Below are positions 4,596-60,689 of a DNA stretch of 64,000 nucleotides, one piece after another. A program made the position numbers and the translations under genes. The stretch comes from Tubiluchus corallicola (taxonomy: Eukaryota; Animalia; Priapulida). The stretch covers positions 63,821-127,820 of the forward strand of contig JAQGDQ010000614.1 in the NCBI GenBank assembly GCA_030141605.1, read 5' to 3'. Position 1 is the stretch's first letter, and each line of letters opens with the position of its first letter. The notes under the pieces were generated by a model, which saw nothing but the letters and a program-made list of their open reading frames with translations, was not told the origin of the DNA and made no database searches.

Positions 4596-7500
4596 GTAAA
4601 CTGCCTGGTCTTATTATCATGTTTATTGTCACTTTTATCACTGTAATGTCATGCTTTTGTTTCTTCAAGTGATACGTAGTGATTCAAACTGGTCATCATT
4701 CCTTAATATCAACTAAGGATTCCTAAACTGGTCAACTAGATCAATTAACCCATCTTTTTAGTTATATGTATTATTAATAATTCTGCATAAAGTTGGAAGC
4801 AAGTTTCAGTCCAGCTGAAAACTTAGTATCAGTTTCACTTTGTCAAAACTATTTTGGAATAATCATTCTTCGTCTATTTTAACCAAACAATGTAGTGTGT
4901 CTGCTGATTTCTGGTCACTTGCAATTTTTTGGGTGCGATATTTTTTTAGGGAGGTGCCCATCAATTGAAGTGCACTAAACTGTACCAAGAGCCAACATAC
5001 AGTTAAAACTGTTTCACAATTCTAAAGTTTTTTTAACGCCAAATGTCACTCATAACGACGTGTAATTTTTATTAAATTCGGCAATGCATTGTATATCATA
5101 ACTTGTCTCCGTGTTTGATTGCTTATTTCACAGAATATTGGTAATCACTCAGTGTTTTCTAATATGGAGCAGGTGCTGATGCTACCCCAACTCCTACACC
5201 AGTATAGGCCAGTTCACACTTCTTGTGTTCACTGTCAGGACTCTTGTCAATGTTGCTGTTTATTTTTTCATTATGTTTGTCATTTATTTGCGATGAAATT
5301 AATAGACTAATCAATGAATTAATGAAATTAATACTTGTGGTTTTTTCAGGCTCACATGTCACTGATGATGAGCTAAAAACTGCAGAAGAGAAATTTGAAG
5401 AATCGTGGAACTTGGCTGAAGCTGCTATGATCAACTTGCTTGATAATGATGTATGCAGATTACCTTTTAAGTTCTTTGAAGTACAAAATTAATTTCAGCA
5501 AACAGTGCAGTGTATATACATGATGATAGCTAAAACGTTGGTGTATGCTAAACCTAGACTACTCATATCTTGATTTTTGAACTTGTCAGCTAATACATAG
5601 ATCGCAAGCGGCGTTTAGCCCTGCCCACACTGATGATGCAACACACGTTCTCACAAACGCTCGCTGCAAGTCCTTACAAACATGGATAGCTCATCTGCCC
5701 AAATCTTTAGTTTAAAAATCTGTAGAAAAGAGCAAAGTTTCAAAAATGGCAGAAAGACAGCAGTTGTAAATAATGCATTTTTTTTATTGTAACATGTACT
5801 AGGACCGTTGGTACCGTCTTAATTGTGAAAAAGTCAAGTAAATTCTTTGCAAACGTTTAGATAATATGTTTAGTTCATTGGCAATTGCTGTTAGTTAATA
5901 CTTTAAACTTTATTTATTTAGATTACGTGTTTTCTAGGAAATATTTGTATCTCTGTTTTTATTTAAACCTGAAAGAATTAATATTTAGTTTTTTGTCACC
6001 AGGTGGAGCAAATATCTCAGTTGGCTGCTCTGGCTCAGGCGCAATTGGATTATTACAGACAGTCAGCAGATGTTTTAGAAGGCCTTGTTGGTGTTTTGGA
6101 GCTAAAGTAAGTGGTACTGTATACAGATCATGAAATACCACATAAGATCAAAAGCATGATTTACTATAAAATTTGTTTAGCGACACAGTTTTCGTGTGCT
6201 TGTGTTATTTAACTTTAATAACATAGTATGCTACTGCAAAATTACTTTGTTGATAAACGACATAAATTCTCTTTTTCATATACTTAAAATGGTTATCAAA
6301 TTTTATTGTTTAATTTTATTAGCAAAAATACAACTTATAAAAACTATAACTGTCTAAATCTGGGAAGCTCTCTATCCATTCCAAAATGGCATTCCACAGA
6401 ATTGTAATGATGAATAGGATTCCTCAGTTTGTCATTATTAATCTGAATTATCAAGTGAAATCTAAAGTATTGCTCTAATTCACATTTAAATCCTGGGTTT
6501 TAAAATGTTGAGAAGAAAAGAATATATACTGCTGTAGAGAAAAGCAACTTAGCTGACAAAAAGCAAATTTGCTGACAACTTCTCCATTTTTTTCATGTCA
6601 CCACATGGACAAATATGTTGCATCTTAGTCTCTCAGCTACCTTACGTCTCCTTTTATAAGATGCTAAGTAACATTCATTTTCTTTTTTTCAGTAGGAATT
6701 TTACGAGGTGATCTAATTAGCTGTTTTTGAAGTAACGTTTCTTTTTTGGAATGCCCTTTTTCTATTAAACGTTGCTTCTTGAACATAAATGTAAAGTGTG
6801 CACTTTGAATGCATGTACCCGTGTTCTGTAGGTTGGAAGAAACAAAGAACAGACCTCGTCGAGAACCTACTCTTCACGTTGTACCAAAAACCATTAGCAT
6901 GTCTTCAACTTCAAATTCCTCCGATATATGGAACAACACAGACAAGGACACTAATCGAGCAAAGAGTCCATCATCATTGTTTGCTGATAATGCTTGGCCA
7001 GGTATAAGGAGCTTATTCTTTATTGTTATTCCCATTGTTCTCCTTTATTATTATCATGGTCATCATTTTTATCATCATCATCATCATTTCTATTATTATT
7101 GTTATTGTTTGCTCAAGTTGGTTGTCTGAAATATGCTGGTCTACGACCAAGTTCCAAAGAACAAAGTCACCCAATACAGCCAGTTGTTGACTTGTGACCA
7201 CATTTGGTTCCAACCGATCAGATGTAAGGCAATTTAAACATAAGTCGGATAATAAAGATACATGATCCTTAAGTCATATTTGCATAGGTCTTAAGTTGAT
7301 GACTATCTGTATCTCTGAACTGTCAGAGAGCATTAAGTGCATTACATTCACACACATTCCTTTTGTTTAATTGTCGATTATTGGTATGAAGTATTTCATA
7401 AATCAATCACTTAGAGAGTTTTATGTTTAGTAGTATCATGAAAAATTATTTCTGGCAATGTCTTTTTTCATGTACATTACAGTATGATATTTAGCTAATT

Positions 7501-8794
7501 TGTTGACTTCTCTGTACATACCAGTGTATCAGTATTTTGCAGACTTGTATATCATTTAGCTATGCTAAGTTTATGCAGTTTATGCAAAAAGACATTATTA
7601 TTGAGCCAGCAGAACTATTGAAATTATTGTTTGGAAAAGCAATAGTAAGTGGCATTGCTTAGTTAAGTTAAAGCAGCATGCAAATAATTATTTAATGGCA
7701 CTAAAGGCTATATTGATATAAAATGAAACTATTTTAATACTTTTTCTTTTGTCAAATGTCATCCTGACCTAGGTGATACCCTGATAGCAATTACAATGTG
7801 CATAATGTGTCTCAACTGTTTTCTGTACATTTTCATTGTTTACCAGGTGATGATAACATGTCAGCGTGGCCTGTGGACAATACTGCTAGCACTCAAAGTA
7901 GCAGGTTTACTCCAACAAAAGCGCGTAAGTGCGATACTCCCTTTTTCAGAAATATGCGTGGTCTTAATGTCCATTTTATTTGTACATTGAGTTAAAAATG
8001 GACACTATGTTACATTTAATGCATGATACGGTGAATGCAAGTAATTGAAGATGATCAAAACATACGAGCAGTACCTAAAAAATTATGGAATTTTACAAGT
8101 AAAACTTATTTAATTTTAGTCTGAACAGCTGAAACAAAGGTTGTATTTTGAACTTTCTTATTTTTGTCAAATTTATGCAGTGTTGACACTTGTAGTATGT
8201 AAAATTAATGTAAAAATCCTAAACATTGTAGTGAAGAACTCATCAAGGGAATAAATGAGCAAATAAGAAAAGAAACAGTAAGGTGAACCACTATTAGCGG
8301 CTATCAAGCGTGCTTGCCTTAAGCAACACAATTTTGAATAGATTATTTATGAAAGAAAAAGAAAAGAAAATACAATATATTACAAAATGTCAAATTGTAG
8401 TCTTATTGTATCAATGATGAATTGGTTCATATAGTGGGGAAACCTAGTCGACAATGTTCTTGAGATTGAAATGTGATGTGACACAGCAGTTTCTAATGCA
8501 AACAGCATTCGCAAAAATTTAAAAGGATAAATATCCGTATGGTAACTTACTTGGCTTTTGTTATTTGCAGCTTCTCCTACCCCGACACGCCCGTGCTGTG
8601 AGGGTCTCTATGATTTTGAACCAGAAAATGAGGGCGAGCTGGGCTTCTCCGAGGGAGACATCATCATGTTGACTGAGCGAATTGATGAAAACTGGTTTGA
8701 AGGAACCCTGAATGGCAAAACTGGCTTCTTTCCTGTCAACTATGTCAGAGTTATTGTGGATGTTCCCCCTAGTGCTAATTTTGCAAACTATTGA
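4529..8794 (+). CDS. EndoA: Endophilin A (SH3GL1/2/3 family), 3' part: BAR C-terminus, linker and SH3; 5' exons not found in the window
   Basis: Six exons with canonical AG/GT and consistent phases: 4529-4595, 5350-5450, 6003-6106, 6832-7001, 7847-7924, 8571-8794. The joined protein [20 protein letters not shown]...EEKFEES...[27 protein letters not shown]... plus SH3 [40 protein letters not shown] matches the endophilin-A pattern. Confidence 0.95.
5350..5450 (+). CDS. EndoA: Endophilin A exon ([36 protein letters not shown])
   Basis: ttttttcag acceptor, gtatgc donor, phase 1 to 0. Confidence 0.93.
5596..5680 (+). repeat. Dispersed repeat, copy 1 (tagatcgcaagcggcgtttagccc...)
   Basis: Near-identical to 19415-19500 over the first ~30 nt, with continued similarity (acacac.ttctcacaaac.ctc...tgcaagtc). 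Confidence 0.8.
6003..6106 (+). CDS. EndoA: Endophilin A exon (BAR last helix, [28 protein letters not shown])
   Basis: gtcaccag acceptor, gtaagt donor, phase 0 to 2; this frame is not listed in the ORF track. Confidence 0.93.
6832..7001 (+). CDS. EndoA: Endophilin A linker exon ([11 protein letters not shown]...DNAWP)
   Basis: ttctgtag acceptor, G|gtataa donor, phase 2 to 1, RPRRE post-BAR motif. Confidence 0.85.
7847..7924 (+). CDS. EndoA: Endophilin A linker exon, symmetric phase 1-1 ([25 protein letters not shown])
   Basis: tgtttaccag acceptor, gtaagt donor, 78 nt, open frame. Confidence 0.75.
8571..8794 (+). CDS. EndoA: Endophilin A terminal exon, SH3 domain
   Basis: ttatttgcag acceptor; [14 protein letters not shown] / ENWFEG / [10 protein letters not shown]3 motifs; TGA at 8792-8794. 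Confidence 0.96.
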
Positions 8795-11700
8795 AAGCAC
8801 ACATTTTACAGCTATGATACCATGTCAAATATGGATAATTAGTTGGTTGTCACAGCAAATGTTTGGCATATTAAATAGTTTAACCTAATAGTTAGTTCAT
8901 GAGTTATAGTTGTAAATTATTTAAATTGTATATATAAGTGGTTTCAAAATGGTATAAAATTCCAAGTTGGGGTTTCTTAAATAGTAACACAGCTATGGCA
9001 GTTTGCTGTTGACACTTATGCATAATACAGTTGCTAATACTGAATATTAAATTTGAAGCCATCTGTAGTTAAAAAGCTGCAGTGGTAGTTTGAAATATTT
9101 AGGTTAAGTACTCTCACTCACTGGTTGGTTCTGTTCCACTAAAATTTAATCTTGCACCTCTGCAGTAGCCACGTTAATCAAGAAACGTTTCGTTGTAACT
9201 ATCACCTTTGTTTCTTTGGCAGTCTTCTTCCATTGTGTGCCACTTTTGGGATGCTTAGCAGCATATACAGTTAACCCTTTTTGTTACTGGTGCTTTTTGG
9301 ATTATTTATTAGGTTTCGCATGTCAAGGAAATTCCAGCTACTAATGGAGATTGATAACTGTTTTATTTTTTGTGTTATGAGAGATTTTAGAATCATTTTA
9401 CATTTTACTTTATAAGTTTAGGTTTTTGTGGCATTTATTTATTAGTACTCAGGTTTTCTTTGTAGAATTCTGCTGCTCAGGATTTAACTTAGTTGTACAC
9501 TTTAACGTCTATTAATCTCTCCGCAAAATCTCTGTAATTACAAGATATTTGTGGTATTTAAGCTACAGTATTTATTTACGTAACTATTAAAATTTAACTT
9601 TCGAGTATGCCATTTTTATTGTGCTGTCAAGTTTGAGTGGATTTGCATTTTTACTTAATTTGTTGCTGTAAGTACTCAGTCATTGTATTTTTGTTGTAAT
9701 CTAGTCATTATTTTATGAAAAACATTTACAAACAATTGTCATCAGACTTGTTGCTGATAATTAAGAACAACTAACAGACTTAATGCAAAATTAGATAGCA
9801 GGGTAAAAACAAAAGTGTAATCGTATTCTTGTGATATGGATTGGAGAAGTTTTTGTTTGATTTATCAGTGAGTGATTGCAACTACTTAACGTAAAAGTCA
9901 TTAAGTGTTATGTATATTGTAGTTAGACTAAGCAATAATAGGTTGTATTACCATTATTATTAATGTTATTATTGTATGACTAACTACACATTTTCTTTTA
10001 TCTCGATGTTGTGATATATTACTAAAAAAATGTAATATTAGTGTGTTCTCACAAAGAGCTCATTATACTTTGCTGTGTATATAAAAGTAATTTTGTTAAA
10101 ATTATGAGTGTATAGAAGACTAGGTTTTGCAATTATATGCGAGAATATAATATGACAGTAATATGATAATATATAGCGAGAGCATAAAATAAGGAAAAGT
10201 ATGCGAGCAAAAGCTTAAAGCAGCTATGTCTTTTGCATATTGCCACCTCGGATGTGTCTGGTTATGTTTGAATTATAACTGACAAAATACATGTGATCAT
10301 TCTCATGAAATGCTGAATTTTGTTGTCGCTAATCACTTGCCATTTAACTTTGAGAAAGACTGAATGAGCACTGTTAACAATAAATGAAGCAAACGTATAA
10401 AAATGGCTGTCATTGCTTAATGAGTGATGATAAATTACAGTACTTTTGCGCAGCGTCAAATTAAAATGAAGGATTTAGTTGGACTTACAGACTTTGTAAA
10501 CCAGGAATTGTGACATGCTTGGTAACTGAGAGTAATTATTTATTAATAAATACTAAAATTGTGTAGTTAGGAGTAATGTAGGTTGCAAAGTAATTGGTTG
10601 TAAATTTTTTTGCTCTTTGTGTGTATGTGACTTATCTGTTATGTGTCGATTTTTAATAATTTGGTCATTGTTATTGTTTGTCTGTTAAAGTCCTAAAGAT
10701 TTTAGTCAGATGTTTGTAAAAATAAGCACATTCTTTCAAATACTGAATCAAAATTGTCGATTGTTTAAAAAGCGTATTTGCACTTTTTTCTATGCTCCCA
10801 AGTTGTTGACTACATTCCAAAACCTTGGTTTAACAGTTTAACAGTCCACAGTTATTAGTCCTCTTTTTGTGTTGTATACTTGCCAGAATGTCATTAATCT
10901 TATTTTTAAGTAATTAGTGGTGGTAGTGTACACATTATTGTGCATGTATATATACATGCATTAATTACTTCACATATCTGAAGGTTATTGTTATTAAAAC
11001 GTTAATTCTGCCATTACCACTAGGTCTATTTAAAACAACAGAGAAGTTATGTTTTAGAAGTAAGCTTAAGAAGTTCGCATCAATTCTGTTTAACAATCCA
11101 TTCGTGTTATGAGACTAGAGTTCACTCAACGCCTATAACTTGTTTATTTATTAGCCTTCAGATTATTAATTATTTAATTGCTACACAACTACACAAAGTT
11201 ATTGGCTTAATGTATTGCAACGCGTTGAACGCAATTATGTAAAGATGCTTTACTGCATTTGTTTGCCTTGTTTTGCTCCTTTACTTTTAAGCTGTTTCAC
11301 TAAAATAATATTTTTTGTGACGGTAGGTAGAGCCATGTGCCCACAATAGCAAAAGCACAAGAAATTTAAATTTTATTAGTACCATCTTTTTGTGTTGTTT
11401 ACCTGCCAGAATGTCAATCTCATTTTCAAGTGATTGATGGTTTAGTACATTTTTCTTACCTGTAATTAATATTAAAAAATTGTTATTTAGTATGGAGAGT
11501 TTTGGTTACGCATGTCTTTACTCGAAACCTTTCCTTCATTATTTTGGTTTTTGAAGCGTCGGTATGGCTCTTGTGTGCATTTGTATTATAGGTAAGAAGG
11601 AAATAATTATAAATTTAGGGAGTTCAAGAAGAAACAGTGAAGCAGAAACACGCTGATATGCTTACACCGGAATGCGTGAAAACCAAGTTATAAGGTGTTG

Positions 11701-13209: not shown

Positions 13210-36109
<22,900 letters not shown>

Positions 36110-38938
36110 TATTCACACTTAAACCGATAACAATAGAACTGCGCTAAAAAAAATAACAACAGCAAGAGAAAAACACCCGAGGCGAGAATTTTTGATAGCT
36201 CGACAGCACGATAACACTGGGTGTTCTTTCATGCAAGAACCGTCTTTACAATAAGAATCTAGTCTAAGTCAAGGACATGTTGGTTAACGTAGGCCTACTA
36301 TCTTCTCAGCGTCGTCTGCAGTCCCAGAAAGATAATCAGAAGACAATGGTTGAAAAGCTTCACTGAAATTAACCAATTCGAATTGGCTCTGTCATTTTCA
36401 AGGCAGGCAACAAGTCATTATTTAAGCACCTGTAGGCTTTTGGAGAACTACGCACTGTTTTCATGTCTAATGGAGTTCTGTAATAAAACGACTAGTTCTC
36501 GTACAAAACTCTTATCTCTCTTTTTTGCAACACAGTAAACTGCGACACTTTTTTCCAGTCATGCTTAAATAAACTTTAAAATTTTACATGGTGTTACGAT
36601 AATAAAATCAGCGCAGTTTGTGTAATCACATGTGTCCGATTAATGTCTCTGCTCTATCAGTGAGTGCAGAAAAGTTTCAACTAATTTTAATGAACTCCGA
36701 ATTACCACACTCCGGCAGTAAACAAGTGCGTTTCAGCAGTAAACTTCACCTCGTTGTGACATCCGTATTATTTTGCTTCTAACGAGGAATTTTTGGTCAC
36801 AGTCAGTGCCCCTGTAGAGCTCCTCGTAGTTCTGCTGACCTCATTACTAGAGTTTCGGTCAAACCATGTGAATAGACGTTGTTCATCAATGCTGTTATTT
36901 GTACCAAGTTATGTTACTACCTGCTCAAGTTCAACTGTAAACTTGTCCAATTAGTTGAGGTTTTGCCTAATACAAGAAGCAATAAACTTGACATTGTGGA
37001 TTTTGGCAACTTTTAGCGCGTTTTATACTTGCTTTTATTTTTAAGAGGGCTGTTCGAACGGTTGTCAGAACGTTCAGTAGCTATTAATACAGAAGAATTT
37101 TCATTAAGAAAAAATAAAAGTAAAAAAATCTGAAATGTGGATAATCTAATAATTCAATAGAATTTGAATTTAATTGCAAGTTGAAATAATTAAAAAATTA
37201 TTTTTGTTTCTTTACAGAACTTTGGTCTATTATAGGCCAGTGCGCATAGTGCATAATAGGACCTACTGTATATAAAAAAATTAATTTCGGCCTGAAACAG
37301 GTAGTGTGTAATACATTCAGAACGGATAACTTATATAAACACTCGTTTTTCTCAGTTCGTTTGTTTGTACTTTCCTTTTTCAGTGTTGCGATTGTTCTTT
37401 CTGATATTTATAATTTATTTAATACCGTCAGTATATTGTTATTATGTAAATGTGTATCACAGTATAATACAAAAAATTAGTACACCATGGCATTTTCCTA
37501 TTATTAACTTTTATTGCCCACTTTAAAACGTGAATGACTGAAGTACATTTATGATATATAAATTTTTATGTATAATTCGACACACTGTAAGCCCGAGTTT
37601 AGCAGCAGAATTCAACGTGGATGGTTGTATCATTTGCTTTTACCATCATTATGTAGATTAAAGAAAAGTTCAACTAATCATCTAGTGGAGTTGAGAAAAA
37701 GTGCAAATAATGTTATTGGGGCTGACTCGGTTCCAATGGACTAATGGAAGAGCTGAGTCATCAATGTTTCGGTAGATCAGAGGATGAACTGAGCTAATGT
37801 TTTAGTGAACTAGCAAAAAAGCATAGCCAGTATCCCAGTGAACCCTGGTAAAACTGAGCCAATCCGCTAGAGCTGATCTAGTCGACTAAAGGAAGATGTT
37901 TGCAAAGAGCGAGAATGCGCGGTGTTAAATTTGGAGGTAAAGCAGTTTAAAAATTTAAGTTTTAGTCTTTCCCTTGGTAATCTTTTTTAGCTATTTTATG
38001 CCAAGCGGTGTGACAGGGACCTTTTCTCCGCTAGTGCTGCGAGTGAATGAACAAAAACATGGTAAGATAATTACTTTTGAAAGGAAATGGCAAAGGAAAT
38101 CGATTCATTAATCAAGATGACATTTTTGTTATTCTAACAAATAAACTCTGGACTTATTCAATGTATTTGGATTGTCATGCAATTCACTACCCTGTTATAT
38201 GTCCTGTTATGTTTCAGTGTATTATCATTATGCCACAGGATTCTGCACTCCGAAACGCTATAAGTTTTTCAAAACCAGTTATGCGTTTTTTTATTTTGAT
38301 GTACATGTCGCTGTTCGATACCTTGTTTCATTAATGATAAACTTGGTTAATTTCTTTAATAAATTCTTCTGGACTTGAAGCCTGGATAAATGTTGCAGTA
38401 TACATATGCATAACAACCTTTATAGAAAACCCCCAAATGTCGTGAGTAATGCGTGTTGAAGTGTTACTACTTCGTTGCTGCCTTGTCGTCGTCGTTCATC
38501 ATCGTTACCACCATCACTGTAATAATCGTCTCCACCTACGCTACTGGAAATGTTAGCAAAATATAGCAAAATATGTGTTGTTTTATAGCTCTTTTAAAAG
38601 GCTTGTTTCTCGTCTACAAAAAGTCGACGAGAAATATATATATATACTTGCTTTTGTTACAGCATAAAATTTTAAAATTTATAACTTTGTTATATTTTTA
38701 CGATGTAACATTACTTTTACCGCACTTTGCAAGGGGAACTGGATATTTTCTAAGCTATAGGCCTCTAACAATGATTCTGTCAGAGTGCCCATGGGAGGCA
38801 TCAAGGCTAGAGTTATAAACCTTTTGAAAAGTTAGCACTAGGAAGCCAGAGTGACAAGGTAATTTTCGACAAAATAAAATTTATTATCATGGCGAGTTTA
38901 TGAATTAGAAACTTTCTGTGTAGTAGCTTCTTCCCTAC

Positions 38939-39199: not shown

Positions 39200-39259
39200 C
39201 TCATCTAGGTTAATCGCGTAAGCTAATAACCACAAAAGATTTGACTACTCTACGCATGC

Positions 39260-40750
39260 ATGATGTCAAAGCAAGTGATTTTAGTTTTGTGCTTTCTTTA
39301 TTGTGCTCACGCCAAGCAGAATTCCATTTTCCCAGAAAGAAGAATTACCGCAAGTAGTGACGGCAACGGCAAACGCATCGATATTAATAAAGAAAACGTT
39401 GACGGTAAAGGTATGCGCGGGGCTAATATTGCTTTCGTCTGTAAGCAGCAGTTAAGTTATGAATTCCCGTCCTATTCGCACTGTTGCACTGTGCTAACTG
39501 ATTTCATCCAATTTATGTGCAAACTTTATAGAAATTGACTGTGACGAACATACCTTTAAATTGAACTTTTCAAACTTTTAATTAAACTTTTGCAATACTT
39601 TTTGAGAATTTCTTATAAACCATTACTGACTTTGTAAAAGGTTGTAAGTAGCCTTAAAAGGTTGTAAGTTTCTTTTTTCATGAGTATATTTTACAAGCGT
39701 AGAATTTTATGAACAAAAAGATTGTAAATACTAATGTATCAGGTGGCGCAAAAATGTGCCGAAGTTTTGATCACGACACCATAAGATGAAAATACATTGA
39801 TGTTACAGACACTTATATTTAAATACTAAAAATTTTAGGTCATTCCTTTAGATTTGTCCAAAGATAGAGAAGTTTTAAATCAACAAGTCAAAAAAACACA
39901 AATGTCGAAAAAATTGCTAAAATTTATAACAAGTATAGTATGTGTCCAACATTTTCACAGCAAGCTCGATGAAAGCATTTCTTCAAACAGCTGGGTATTT
40001 AGTCCCAGTAATCAACAATTTTTGCTTTTAGTTTCTCCGCATCCAATGGCCCTGTGCGGCTGTGCCGTACACTCTCTTTGAGAAATTTCAAATGCCATAG
40101 TCCAAACAATTGTCTCATTTTTAAGGGTTTTATACGTCAATGCGGCTTTTTTCAGTTTTCCACTGAAACTATAAACTTTCACAGCTGAAAGGTAACGCAT
40201 TGAATACATTTGTAACTTTGTAGGGCACTTGGTCCTAATATTATAATAGTCTTAATTTCGCCACATTTTTTCTACGTCACCCGATATATATATTTTAGTT
40301 TTCTAACTAACATTCTATATCCATTGTAATATGTCCATTCTAATACTGGCTGAATTAAATCGGGTGAAAAGCCTTCTGTGTAAAATGCCTTTATGAAAAT
40401 TGAAAGATAAAGCATGAAATGTTTACAGTTTGTGTATGCTTTTTATATGTTGTACAATATTTAAGCTTTGTTTTAAATACTTGAAGAGAACTTTTTGACT
40501 AGTATGAGGTCGAAAGTTGCGTTCTAAATTAAAAAAAGTAATACAGTACTATTAATTCAACCTGACAAAACCAATGGATTCTCAAAAAGGCACTCTACTG
40601 AGTTGGGGGACACAGACAAAAAGGGTTATATGTTTTTTCTTAGGAAGTGAGAGTGAGAAGAAAATGGAGAAAGAGAGAGTGGGAGAGAGTGAGAAATAGA
40701 GACTTAAAAAGAGCAAGAGAGAGGTGAGACGGAGAAAAGGAGAGACAGAC

Positions 40751-40842
<92 letters not shown>

Positions 40843-41257
40843 GGAGATAGAGAGGTGACAGAGTTCACGGATAAGGAAGAAGAAAAAGTAGAGCAACAGC
40901 AACGAAGAGAAAGGTGAAACTAATTTTGGTAACCCTTCCGTTACAGATGGACATAAAATGTGGTTTCCACGCGACGGTTCACATTCACTCCCAGCGTTAC
41001 CACTAAATAAAATGGGTTTGTCTGATGACAACCAGATTCTCTGGAAGCGCAATACCCGCGATGTCCTGAACTGCAACAGCTACACAAGCTGCAGATCTAT
41101 GATGCTAAAGACAATACAAGGGGTCATAACAGCGAAGAAGCAGCTCAAGCACGCGGAACAAGATCTCAAGGAAAAGACTGATGTCGTATTTAAATTGTTT
41201 TGTCCACCCAACCAAAGAGTATTTTCTGTTTATCCCATTTCTAGGTGTTTTATTTGA
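39260..41257 (+). CDS. Uncharacterised secreted peptide/prohormone-like precursor (153 aa from two exons; possible extra 81-nt exon 39852-39932)
   Basis: Exon 1 (39260-39410, AAAG|gtatgc) encodes signal peptide MMSKQVILVLCFLYCAHA plus RR and GKR sites. Exon 2 (40947-41257, cccttccgttacag acceptor, phase 1 matches) encodes KRNTR-DVLNCNSYTSC...CPPNQRVFSVYPISRCFI*. TATA-like element at 39188-39199 and AATAAA at 41431-41436. Confidence 0.72.
40655..40855. repeat. (GA)n microsatellite and purine-rich tract in the precursor intron
   Basis: Direct reading. Confidence 0.95.
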
Positions 41258-43034
41258 AAGACTGACATTATACTGTGTTTGAAGAATTAGACATCTTTGT
41301 AAAAGCTATCACCATAGGTGGGCAAAAATCACGTAAAACGCTGTGAATGATCGCACACAGACTGCGCTACTTCCATATTTCGGTCTCTATAAAAGTGTGA
41401 AAGAATATAACAATAGTTTTTTTCAATCTAAATAAAAATAAAACAGTTACAGCAGTCACTGAGAATATCATGCATCATTTTATTGAACATTACAAGAGCA
41501 GCATCCGTCAATTTGTACATCATCAGCCAAATGTATGTCAACCCTAAATGCAAATAATTGAATTACAAATTGCAAAGAAATGTTTTTTTACTGGGTATTC
41601 AAAATTACGAACGAGCAGTGAAGAAAGAAATCACGCATTTTAGACCAAATCACCAAATTTGAAATTTAGTAGGCTATGGCCTGTAAATAGCAATATATAC
41701 CGTCTAGCATCATCCCACACAAATAACCTGTAAAGTGCAAGCCCATTTGAACACATCAAGCGTAGAAATTCACATCATTACTCAGAATTCTTTCCAGCAA
41801 AAAAACCAAAACAACGCTATTTACAACTGCTAACTAAATAAGAATCGTGCTGAAAGAAATGATGAGTGATTATGTTTTATTTCTGTTGAAATTAAAATTT
41901 CAGAATGACAAGATCTTTGTTCAATTTAGGTAGTAATTAGTTTTTTGTCCTTCTATAATAACAAATTGGCTTATACTAAAGATTCGTCCACAAACAAAAA
42001 AATACATCAATGGTGTATGAAAACACGTATGCTGAGTATCTGTTTCTATTTTTTCTATTATCTGTGCCCTTTTTACTTCTTCTATTGTAAGTGTAAAGTA
42101 CACATGAGCAAAACTCAAAAATGTTGATCTGCCTTGTCTTCCATGGCAGATTTTGTCCTCTTTATTTTCTGTATCAACACTATTCCAAAGCATCCATTGA
42201 GTTATCATCACTATTTTAGTAACTTTATTCTAGGGGAACTTTAATTGTGATGTGGTGTTCAGGAAGTAATTCTATGGCCAGTCTTTTGAAGAACAGTTTG
42301 GCTAAGTCTAATTGAAGAATAATAATATGCAAATCATATTAACTATGGCATCTAATGAATATTTGCCATTAATTTTCAATAATTACTTGGGTATAAACAC
42401 AAGTTAACTACCAACTTGCTTAGTTGCTCTTAGTTAATGACTTACTTACATATTTAATTTAATCGGTTAGTTCCAAATTTCAAATTATCATCTCGATAGA
42501 AACTATGTGCTACACGTATTTTTTAACCAAGGAACTGTACAAAAAATTTATTATGAAAACATGAGCATCAGTGATTCATGATGTGCAAATAAATTATTAT
42601 GTAACTCTTTATTTATTATTATTTATAAAACATCATTTGATATTTAGAAGAATACTTCTTTCAATCAAGGTGAATAATATAAAACAAATTAATGTTATTG
42701 TTTTTCATATACAGTTTCACAGTGCGACCTTTGGATACTGGCCTCACAAATACTAATGATTTCATTATTTAAGCAAATGTAAGAGCAATAGGCAGAAATA
42801 AATATGTAAAGCAATAAGAAAGACTCATTGTGTCAGAACTGTTGGAAAGATAGGTTAAATAACAAAGAAAAAAGGAAAGAAGCTAATAATGTCATAAAAA
42901 ACCCACAGAGAAGACTGTTAATAAAATGCCTGCAGGTTGCTTTCCGCATGTGGCTATAGAAACAAAAATAAAAACTCAGCAGGTATTCAGTATTATTGTT
43001 ATTACTCAAGGAATGATTACCATTAGCATGACCT

Positions 43035-57975: not shown

Positions 57976-60689
57976 GCGTCAACATATTGGCATTTTGATG
58001 AAACTAAAGTTATAAAGATATAAAAAAGTACCAAGTTAAAAGTGACATTTATTAGCTGACATTACGATTCTGCTAGTTAGCATGTATTTTGTATTAAAAT
58101 TAGGCCGAGTTAATTAATTGGCTTTATTTCTTTTGCAGCACTATGTTAGGGTTGCACGACATTAGCATTTTCTCCACTTATTTTTCCAACACGGCTACGC
58201 AATGAGAAACCGTGGTTCAATAACGTAGTAATAAATGCAAGCTGTAAAATTTTAAAACGCTTTTAACCAGAAGCTCGTACAAAGCTAATGTCCACTACAG
58301 CTTAATTTCTCAGTAGTTACAACTTTATATTGTAATTAAGAATCTGCATTGATTATGAAGTTCAAAGTCCGTTCAATGTACTGCTAGATCAGAATTCACT
58401 AGTCGTGAAATCACAAGATCTTGGAGAGTAAAAGTGTGAAAATACAAAATAACAATGAAAGTACAACATGACAGTATTTAATTTCGCTTTTAATTGTATT
58501 TTCCGGGAGAATTTGTTTAGTTCTGAGACTAAGATCCGTTATGTCACAAACAGTTAAGTAGTTGGTTTGGTCACCCAGTTAGAAAAACTTCCAGAAGTTT
58601 TTGGTGCAACATTAAAAAAAATGAAAAAAATGAAGCCACCACGAAAGAATTAGAGTGTAAGCGGTTTAAAGCCGGAACGTAGCTACGTGTAGTATAATTT
58701 CTATTTCTAGACTCAAAACTATTTCTCTATTTTAAAAGAGCTCAAGTTCGATATTTCTTCTAAGTTGTACATTAAATTATTAATAAACATCTGATTTGGA
58801 GTGAATATGAACTTTGCAGAAACGTGTATGGTCAGTAAAACTAAACGATGTGCTTTTAATCTGGAAAATTATTACAAAATGAAAAAGAGATTTTGCCACA
58901 GCGTAGATGTTTTCATCACTCAAATTCTACAAGAACAAATACGGGATATGAGTCGGACTGCACATTGGTGCTTGGAAACTCAGCACCCTTTACAATGGTG
59001 TTCACGACCTCAGACCCGCAACCGTGGCACCCGTCACTTCGGCACCCGCTACATAGAGTTTACCGCACAGCAGTCCTGCTCTTTGTTTTTCAATGATTCA
59101 TATACGCCTTCATTACAAGAGGCGTTATTTTGCTTTCTGGCAGGCGTCAGTTTCGAAAACAAACTGCAAAAATCCTCCATTTTTCCCCTTGCAAACAGAC
59201 AAATAAATATTCATGATGCCAGTGATAGAGAAGATAAACATACAGTGTCCAAAATGCTTTAGGGATTCATCGATCAAACTACCATCATGTCATGTGAGAC
59301 CCTCAGCATGGGATAGTAAGCATTAAACACGACCCTTAATTAAGCTTTGTATTGCCCCACATTGAAGTCTTTTCAAGTGATCTCATCAGACAGAAGTTAT
59401 CTGGGGAATACCCAGTGAGATGAGTGATTTTCAATTGAGCACAATTCTAGAATTGTACCGAATAAAAAGAAGATGTCATCAGTTGCTGATGAGTCTGACT
59501 TCTGATAAACTGAAGTGGTCAAAAATAATGCGTTAAATCAAGCAAAAGTGACTTCATGTCTTTCACTAAACTCGGCTCCAAAAGTTTAGCTAAAACGCTA
59601 AAAAAAAGGAAGATTACTATCATGTGACGATGAGAGTGCTAAATGCATTTGAGGCGTTTCGTAAGTAAAATTGAAAGCGAGCGGTACGCGTTTTTCATTA
59701 TAGTGAAAACTGTTATGAAACCAAAAAGAAATATTGCGAAAGTGTAAACGTTTTCACCATTCAAAGTTAAAACTTTATTCGAATTAGTTTACCACAATCC
59801 TTGCAGATCTATAATATTATAGAAAAACGTCCACGTGCGACTCTACACTATGGGTTATTAATATGCACTTAATTTTTTTGTTTGTCATTTTATGTCAGAT
59901 AGTACAAATGAAAGTTTCTCCGCCGTTAACTTTATTAAATCTTTTTAACAAAGTAAAAAAAAACATAATTATCTTTACAACTGGTAACGTAAAATTTTTA
60001 TTACGCTAGTGGTTTTTGGTATACCACTGAAATACTATGTTATTAAATTGTTTAATCACGACCTCATTTTAATAAAGCACCGTCTTTCTGTTTTTTTTCT
60101 GCTGTCCCTTTCTAATTAAATGCGATATGACTTAATAGGTTTTTAAGGTCGCTCTTTATAATTTAATGTTATTAATAACGAAAGATCAAACAATCGCGCA
60201 GCGCATTTCCTGACACAAGCAATCGAGCAGTAAGTGAAATATCGCATTTGCCAAGTCATTATAGCTTGCTGGCTTCACAGTCGAGTCAAAAGCGCAAACA
60301 TTAAAGCGGCGCTTATCTAGGAAATATTTCAACTAATTAAATTTAATGGAATTGCGTTGTTTCTAACACAGACATTCGTCTTTAACGTGAATCATTTTCT
60401 TATCTTTATTGCGAAAAGCTATTTGAGCTCATAGTCGCTGTGATGAAAATTTATAAAACGGTAGGAATAAAAATGGCGGCAATATTTTCCACATATCTCC
60501 TCGCAACTTTGACGAAAACTGGTCAAGATACTGATCTTCTGGCTGCCTATAAAATTCAAGTAACTTGATGACAAGTTTCGGAGAAGAAAATGACATATCG
60601 CTTATCAAGTATTTTCTTGACATCTTTGAGTTTTGTTTTTCTACAGTTACATCCCAACAATCGAACATTTTCAGGTTGCATAACATACA

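What the first reader, a model, noticed from the sequence alone, without database searches (positions are those of the whole stretch)
39260..41257. Unrecognised secreted peptide precursor between the SH2 adaptor and CFAP210
Seen: two ORF-track fragments (39260 and 40958) splice in phase into one 153-aa protein. It has a hydrophobic signal peptide ending AHA, then ERR and GKR sites, a spacer, and a KRNTR site (dibasic plus furin R-X-X-R). That site would release a 66-aa C-terminal peptide with four Cys. A TATA-like element and AATAAA bracket the gene. Known: this layout is the standard prohormone/neuropeptide or toxin precursor architecture. Inference: this is a signalling peptide or secreted effector that I cannot assign to a described family.
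Basis: partly seen in the sequence, partly recalled or inferred. Interest (0 to 1): 0.85.

Follow-up and report, generated by a model that had tools for sequence, protein, structure and literature searches.

The report
Orphan ring-helix-ring peptide precursor gene
This invertebrate DNA likely holds a real two-exon gene for a secreted precursor that would be cut to release a 65-residue peptide, predicted to be a small disulfide ring, a long helix and a second ring; it is likely a hormone-type signal, but no relative or transcript was found to confirm it.

Summary
The anatomy is in the sequence. Exon 1 (39260-39410) and exon 2 (40947-41257) join in phase 1 to 153 codons: an 18-residue signal-peptide-like start, RR, GKR, a spacer, KR/RNTR, then a 65-residue (not 66) tail with Cys spaced C-x5-C-x36-C-x14-C. 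A strict gene-model rule finds only this locus, and a match in 3 of 810 simulated windows; a loose rule matches 101 of 810. Both listed differences in another individual's exon 2 are synonymous. No spliced transcript was seen. No homologue was found, but the neighbouring CFAP210 has no relative above 58% identity, so close proteomes seem absent. Ring 1 resembles CCAP and calcitonin rings, ring 2 the Hairpin-DREP loop, yet defining features of each family fail (no amidation, no Pro-amide, wrong loop length or intron phase). A weak match of the last 33 residues to human POT1 (E 0.004-0.11) is probably chance. Verdict: likely a real orphan prohormone-type gene of an ordinary kind; a new family is possible but unshown.

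The parts
39260..39410 (+). Coding exon 1 (50 codons + 1 nt); second in-frame ATG at 39263 has A at -3
39260..39313 (+). Predicted signal peptide, residues 1-18, ending AHA
   Evidence: hydropathy and -3/-1 rule; SignalP not available
39338..39376 (+). RR (27-28) and GKR (37-39) basic sites; would free two short peptides, the second amidated
   Evidence: cleavage inferred
39411..40946 (+). Predicted phase-1 GT..AG intron, 1536 nt, holding a dispersed repeat (about 39670-39910) and a GA microsatellite (40667-40854); branch-like CTAAT 40920-40924
   Evidence: donor hexamer GTATGC also follows an endophilin coding stretch near 5450; splice not seen in RNA
40947..41257 (+). Coding exon 2 to TGA; GC 0.42 against 0.33 in the flanks; alternative in-phase acceptor before 40995
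41045..41059 (+). KR overlapping R-N-T-R: predicted convertase/furin site
   Evidence: cleavage inferred
41060..41254 (+). Predicted mature peptide, 65 aa, 7.5 kDa, pI 9.3, Cys at 5, 11, 48, 63
41072..41092 (+). Ring 1, C-x5-C, CCAP/calcitonin-like spacing
   Evidence: disulfide pairing inferred
41081..41200 (+). Predicted 40-residue amphipathic helix (residues 8-47)
   Evidence: pLDDT 71-87 over the first part, lower towards its end; hydrophobic moment P=0.05
41201..41248 (+). Ring 2, C-x14-C, low-confidence beta-hairpin; weak likeness to Hairpin DREP and to human POT1 576-607
   Evidence: hairpin absent in the second model
41431..41442 (+). Tandem AATAAA poly(A) signal, 174 nt after the stop
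39256..39357 (+). Out-of-frame upstream ATG with a 33-codon overlapping frame

Best explanation
This is likely a real two-exon gene for a secreted prohormone-type precursor that would be cut at KR/RNTR to release a non-amidated 65-68-residue peptide, predicted to fold as a small disulfide ring, a long helix and a second ring, and likely acting as a neuroendocrine receptor ligand. Shown: exons, phase, basic sites, Cys spacing, poly(A) pair. Inferred: splicing, signal cleavage after residue 18, convertase cleavage, 1-2/3-4 disulfide pairing. Most inferred: that it works like calcitonin-type hormones, the helix docking on a receptor ectodomain and the N-terminal ring activating the receptor (mechanism of class B1 ligands recalled from general knowledge, not tested).
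For: Strict rule (signal-like start, consensus donor and acceptor, exon 2 of 80+ codons, cleavage site then an even-Cys tail) is met by this locus alone in the window and in 3 of 810 Markov simulations; without the cleavage/Cys clause 29 of 810 (0 and 1 of 40). In DNA run X1, a different individual, 2 of 2 listed exon-2 differences (41122, 41134) are third-position synonymous; chance 0.04-0.06; the contig has a third, unlisted difference. Tandem AATAAA after the stop, 1 of 5 in the window and the only one on +. A phase-1 first intron after the signal exon is the bias of neuropeptide and secreted-protein genes (PMC13542836, passages). All four exon-2 Cys lie after the cleavage site. Ring 1 meets 4 of 6 CCAP position classes, the only one of 92 C-x5-C rings in the six frames to do so, P=0.0014. 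Two AlphaFold runs both give the long helix.
Against: The splice is not observed. No homologue in any search, so nothing shows conservation of the peptide. The strict thresholds were written after seeing the candidate; the loose rule gives the full architecture in 101 of 810 simulations and flags a second locus (about 22.0-22.4 kb) in the real window. Codon models did not separate exon 2 from noncoding DNA (P=0.34), though they also failed on known endophilin exons. The intron lies 151 nt into the CDS, beyond the typical 50-100 nt. An out-of-frame ATG sits 4 nt upstream. No amidation signal follows the main peptide. The motif P values are post hoc and uncorrected for the many families considered. 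Nothing here separates a hormone from a defence or gland peptide.
Confidence: 0.5

Rival explanations
1. Same secreted precursor, but the cationic amphipathic product is a defence, gland or cuticle effector acting on membranes or as a coiled-coil structural peptide, not a hormone.
For: Net charge about +5, pI 9.3; 36-residue amphipathic segment; lineage-restricted; phase-1 intron bias is shared by venom and other secreted genes; X1 contig over exon 2 does not exclude extra copies.
Against: Propeptide is near neutral (+0.9), not the acidic pro-piece common in cytolytic precursors (general knowledge); no tandem paralogue in 36.0-43.1 kb or, by the gene-model scan, in the window; the listed polymorphisms are synonymous, not diversifying.
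Confidence: 0.22
2. A diverged member of a known family (CCAP-, calcitonin- or Hairpin-DREP-related) whose processing sites have drifted; the active piece would be one ring, released at single basic residues.
For: Ring 1 C-N-S-Y-T-S-C against CCAP-type rings in PMC5100318 and the PMC6660194 supplement, 4 of 6 classes; ring 2 meets 4 of 6 Hairpin-DREP classes, P=0.0005; an Arg follows ring 1.
Against: All CCAP rings that I saw start two residues after a dibasic site, nearly all with F before the first Cys and G before the second, and end at basic or G-basic sites; here none of these holds. No Pro-amide for calcitonin. Hairpin loop is 12 residues with a phase-0 intron after it; here 14 and none. 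No Pfam hormone family hit with 8 fragments.
Confidence: 0.12
3. Not a gene: a chance pairing of two open stretches, or a decayed exon (for example POT1-derived) in intergenic DNA.
For: Loose rule met in 101 of 810 simulations; very many windows were read in the scan; codon tests uninformative; last 33 residues match human POT1 576-607 with 12 identities, E 0.11, 0.048 and, after trimming the query and reading the stop as X, 0.004.
Against: Strict rule 3 of 810; synonymous differences; tandem poly(A) signal. The POT1 match covers one 33-residue stretch of one family, gains no identity beyond the stop, no POT1 from any species scored E<=0.001 among 1.84 billion representatives, and no longer protein shared three words with that region.
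Confidence: 0.16

Closest known systems
Calcitonin-type neuropeptides (PMC12638048, passages read; PMC5996578, passages read)
   Same: Signal peptide, spacer, KR, then a peptide opening with a short Cys ring (C-x5-C in sea cucumber AjCT2, also four residues after the start) followed by a helix-prone stretch.
   Different: No C-terminal amidated Pro, no G-K/R; about twice as long; a second Cys ring at the end.
CCAP / molluscan CCAP-type peptides (PMC5100318 and PMC5996578 passages; PMC6660194 passages and supplement file 6, 18 of 21 motif places shown)
   Same: C-x5-C ring with C-N-S-Y inside.
   Different: No KR-x-F lead-in, Ser instead of Gly before the second Cys, no amidation or dibasic site after the ring.
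Medial DREP and Hairpin DREP of molluscs and annelids (PMC10501145, parts 2-4 of 7, passages, supplement Data_Sheet_10)
   Same: Medial DREP: two Cys pairs separated by a helix-prone stretch after a KR or RR site. Hairpin DREP: aromatic-C-x-P-[GN] start and R/T before the last Cys; phase-1 first intron.
   Different: Medial: C-x4-C..C-x5-C, 40 aa, amidated, phase-2 intron. Hairpin: 12-residue loop just after KR, phase-0 intron after it. Neither reported there outside molluscs and annelids.
Somatostatin / allatostatin-C precursors (PMC7536072, passages read)
   Same: Cys ring at the very end of the precursor.
   Different: Phase-0 N-terminal intron defines the family; here phase 1; ring of 14 residues with no cleavage site before it.

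Membership tests
Prohormone/neuropeptide precursor (architecture) | N-terminal signal peptide | tested here: met
   Crude von Heijne-type rule, cleavage after residue 18; SignalP itself not available
Prohormone/neuropeptide precursor (architecture) | Dibasic or furin sites bounding a peptide | tested here: met
   RR 27-28, GKR 37-39, KR 84-85, RNTR 85-88
Prohormone/neuropeptide precursor (architecture) | Spliced transcript | tested here: inconclusive
   No suitable RNA run; see Tried and rejected
Prohormone/neuropeptide precursor (architecture) | Conservation confined to the mature peptide in orthologues | tested here: inconclusive
   No orthologue retrieved; close proteomes appear absent
Prohormone/neuropeptide precursor (architecture) | Neural/endocrine expression, processed peptide, receptor | not testable with these tools
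   Needs in situ hybridisation, MS, receptor assay
CCAP | Two Cys forming a C-x5-C (or x4) ring | tested here: met
   Cys 5 and 11; 4 of 6 position classes
CCAP | C-terminal amidation (feature stated in PMC5996578) | tested here: not met
   Ring is followed by R-S-M; no Gly-basic site in the 65-mer
CCAP | Dibasic-x-F before the first Cys and Gly before the second | tested here: not met
   Seven residues between KR and Cys; Asn at -1; Ser before Cys 11
Calcitonin-type | N-terminal Cys pair | tested here: met
Calcitonin-type | C-terminal amidated proline | tested here: not met
   Ends C-F-I-stop; no P-G-K/R. CGRPs also lack the Pro,
Calcitonin-type, CCAP, CRF/DH44 | Pfam profile match | tested here: inconclusive
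   No such family listed for 3 + 8 fragments at E<=10, but filters drop matches above about 0.1
Somatostatin/allatostatin-C | Phase-0 intron in the N-terminal part | tested here: not met
   Predicted intron is phase 1
Hairpin DREP | C-x12-C loop just after KR, phase-0 intron after it | tested here: not met
   Loop of 14, no basic site before it, stop two codons after it
Medial DREP | C-x4-C..C-x5-C, amidated, phase-2 intron | tested here: not met
   C-x5-C..C-x14-C, no amide, phase 1
POT1 C-terminal domain | Similarity extending over the domain on both sides | tested here: not met
   Only 33 residues align; no identity past the stop

The most novel reading that the evidence does not exclude
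An undescribed invertebrate peptide-hormone family with a two-headed design: a CCAP/calcitonin-like ring and a Hairpin-DREP-like loop held about 36 residues apart on one rigid helix, so that one ligand could engage two receptor sites or two receptors, for instance one of the orphan receptor guanylyl cyclases or class B GPCRs of this animal.
Probability: 0.15. Interest if true: 0.65.

Novelty: new member of a known kind. Interest (0 to 1): 0.36.

Why it matters
Peptide catalogues of poorly sampled invertebrate phyla are built from known families (NP-HMMer uses 46 arthropod-trained models; 10.1101/2024.07.20.604414, parts 1-2 of 3 read), so family-less precursors like this are missed. If orthologues confirm it, it is a candidate ligand for orphan receptors and adds a cysteine framework I did not find in the families I checked. 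On present evidence it is one unconfirmed orphan secreted gene, a common thing in such genomes.

Tried and rejected
No whole genome is held, so paralogues and the animal's own CCAP, calcitonin and POT1 genes could not be searched. RNA: no RNA holder listed. X1 is unspliced DNA with intron cover. X2 is a spliced assembly of a near relative (three GT..AG joints in endophilin, 15 differences in 487 nt) that has no contig on either exon; it is shallow (70,053 contigs, 13 million letters), so this is no evidence on expression. X1 depth over exon 2 is 44.6 against 3-16 for the other 15 X1 pieces listed; the contig runs into the GA repeat and the tool warns that depth is no copy number, so no conclusion. 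Homologue searches: 0 hits among 1 candidate; 3 hits among 1.84 billion representatives, all tandem-repeat proteins whose score is summed over 8-10 stretches, rejected; 0 of 174 and 0 of 280 metagenome pattern matches; none for residues 60-102 among longer proteins. Exon 1 was scanned only against Pfam, not against the protein collections. Pfam: only GxGYxYP_N, E 0.03-0.19, below cut-off, rejected. The ESM Atlas gave no result. Fold searches with a single-sequence model (pLDDT 68): 3 matches at E>5, best Z 4.5, generic helices. Homodimer prediction: no verdict, score 0.13. Codon-based coding tests had no power. TATA-like element rejected as evidence. A CRF/DH44-like pattern in the helix is recalled, not from a call; only the Pfam scan bears on it. 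Literature searches found no peptide with this framework; one search required two of five ring motifs in one paper and found 0, so it is a weak test. Alignments in figures, the bioRxiv supplement with the Priapulus precursors and the FASTA supplements of PMC10501145 could not be seen and may hold a relative. The script machine was lost, so a planned count of signal-like starts was not run.

Full report
Setting. The window is AT-rich animal DNA (GC about 0.34) with endophilin exons on + at 5-9 kb (BAR and SH3), a retrotransposon remnant at 14-18 kb and CFAP210 on - at 43-47 kb. The best named CFAP210 relative is a nemertean at 49% identity and the best unnamed ones reach 53-58% (23 hits), so the lineage is not resolved. 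Earlier scan notes suggest a priapulid-like animal; I could not confirm that.

Observation. Exon 1 (39260-39410) ends at AAG|GTATGC; exon 2 starts after TTACAG at 40947 with CTAAT 22-26 nt upstream. The join is phase 1 and gives 153 codons with one stop. Residues 1-18 are hydrophobic and end AHA; RR, GKR and KR/RNTR follow as described. The tail after RNTR is 65 residues, Cys at 5, 11, 48, 63. A second in-phase acceptor before 40995 would shorten only the spacer. A tandem AATAAA lies 174 nt after the stop, the only + strand one of 5 in the window. The TATA-like element carries no weight (177 matches), and an out-of-frame ATG at 39256 overlaps the start.

Is it more than chance? A rule combining a signal-like start, consensus splice sites, an exon 2 of 80+ codons and a cleavage site before an even-Cys tail picks only this locus in the window and is met in 3 of 810 order-4 Markov simulations (29 of 810 without the last clause). 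With looser thresholds the figures are 101 and 509 of 810, and the real window shows 7 loci, 2 with the full architecture. The thresholds were set knowing the candidate. Codon-based tests had no power: exon 2 P=0.34 against noncoding DNA, and known endophilin exons also scored near or below zero. In DNA run X1, another individual, the contig over 40855-41259 differs at 3 letters; the 2 listed are both third-position synonymous, chance 0.04-0.06. I put the gene's reality near 0.8. The splice has not been seen in RNA.

Relatives. None was found in 5.8 billion clustered proteins, 1.84 billion representatives (3 repeat artefacts), metagenome contigs or Pfam. Given the CFAP210 calibration, a fast-evolving peptide gene would be expected to vanish at these distances, so orphan status is weak evidence of novelty. 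The only recurring hit is human POT1 576-607 against the last 33 residues, 12 identities, E 0.11 and 0.048, and 0.004 after trimming the query and reading the stop as X, with no identity gained past the stop. I judge it chance but cannot exclude it without the animal's own POT1.

Shape. Single-sequence AlphaFold gives a helix over residues 8-47 and a low-confidence hairpin at 53-64 (mean pLDDT 68); the longer model keeps the helix but not the hairpin. The helix is borderline amphipathic (P=0.05). Fold searches return only generic helices. The simplest pairing is ring-helix-ring (Cys 5-11, 48-63), inferred.

Mechanism. Likely: transcription and splicing, signal cleavage after residue 18, convertase cuts at RR, GKR and KR or furin at RNTR, release of a 65-68-residue non-amidated peptide. 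A short N-terminal ring followed by a helix is the layout of calcitonin-type ligands, which suggests a receptor ligand; this last step is inference. The product is cationic (+4.8, pI 9.3), so a defence or gland peptide is a real rival.

Comparison. Ring 1 meets 4 of 6 CCAP position classes (P=0.0014; 1 of 92 such rings in six frames) and ring 2 meets 4 of 6 Hairpin-DREP classes (P=0.0005); both class sets were written after seeing the candidate and are not corrected for the number of families. Defining features fail: CCAP amidation and lead-in, calcitonin Pro-amide, somatostatin/AstC phase-0 intron, Hairpin and Medial DREP loop lengths and intron phases. A phase-1 intron after the signal exon fits secreted and neuropeptide genes in general. 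So it works like a prohormone and is filed in none of these families.

Papers seen: 10.1101/2024.07.20.604414 parts 1-2 of 3; PMC6660194 passages and a search in supplement file 6; PMC12638048, PMC6188537, PMC7536072, PMC5100318, PMC6523705, PMC5996578, PMC4422128, PMC13542836 passages only; PMC10501145 parts 2-4 of 7, passages and one supplement. Figures and several supplements were not visible and may hold a relative.

Verdict. Observation confirmed with small corrections; interpretation partly supported. Likely a real orphan precursor of a known kind. Interest 0.36; a new two-ring hormone family has probability about 0.15.

Noticed in passing
window 5208-8791 (+): Endophilin-type gene (BAR and SH3 exons); three introns confirmed by spliced contigs of RNA run X2 (6106/6832, 7001/7847, 7924/8571).
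   Followed up: yes
   Followed up: partly
window 13213-36112 (-): Scattered proline-rich and tyrosine-motif exon candidates; a Met near the start of the frame at 35888-36112 would place this gene head-to-head with the candidate, about 3.1 kb apart. No Pfam SH2 hit in the fragments scanned.
   Followed up: partly
window 39670-39910: Dispersed high-copy repeat inside the predicted intron, many partial contigs in X1; type not determined.
   Followed up: no
window 40855-41259: X1 contig over exon 2 has depth 44.6 against 3-16 for the other listed pieces and ends 2 nt after the stop; extra copies or an effect of the adjoining GA repeat.
   Followed up: partly
window 41171-41254: Weak match to human POT1 576-607.
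   Followed up: yes
window 58795-59259 (+): 155-codon stop-free stretch with no Pfam hit; not examined further.
   Followed up: no
window 9089-9261 and 10001-10402: X2 RNA contigs at 89-95% identity beyond the last endophilin coding exon, likely 3' UTR of endophilin or of the opposing gene.
   Followed up: no
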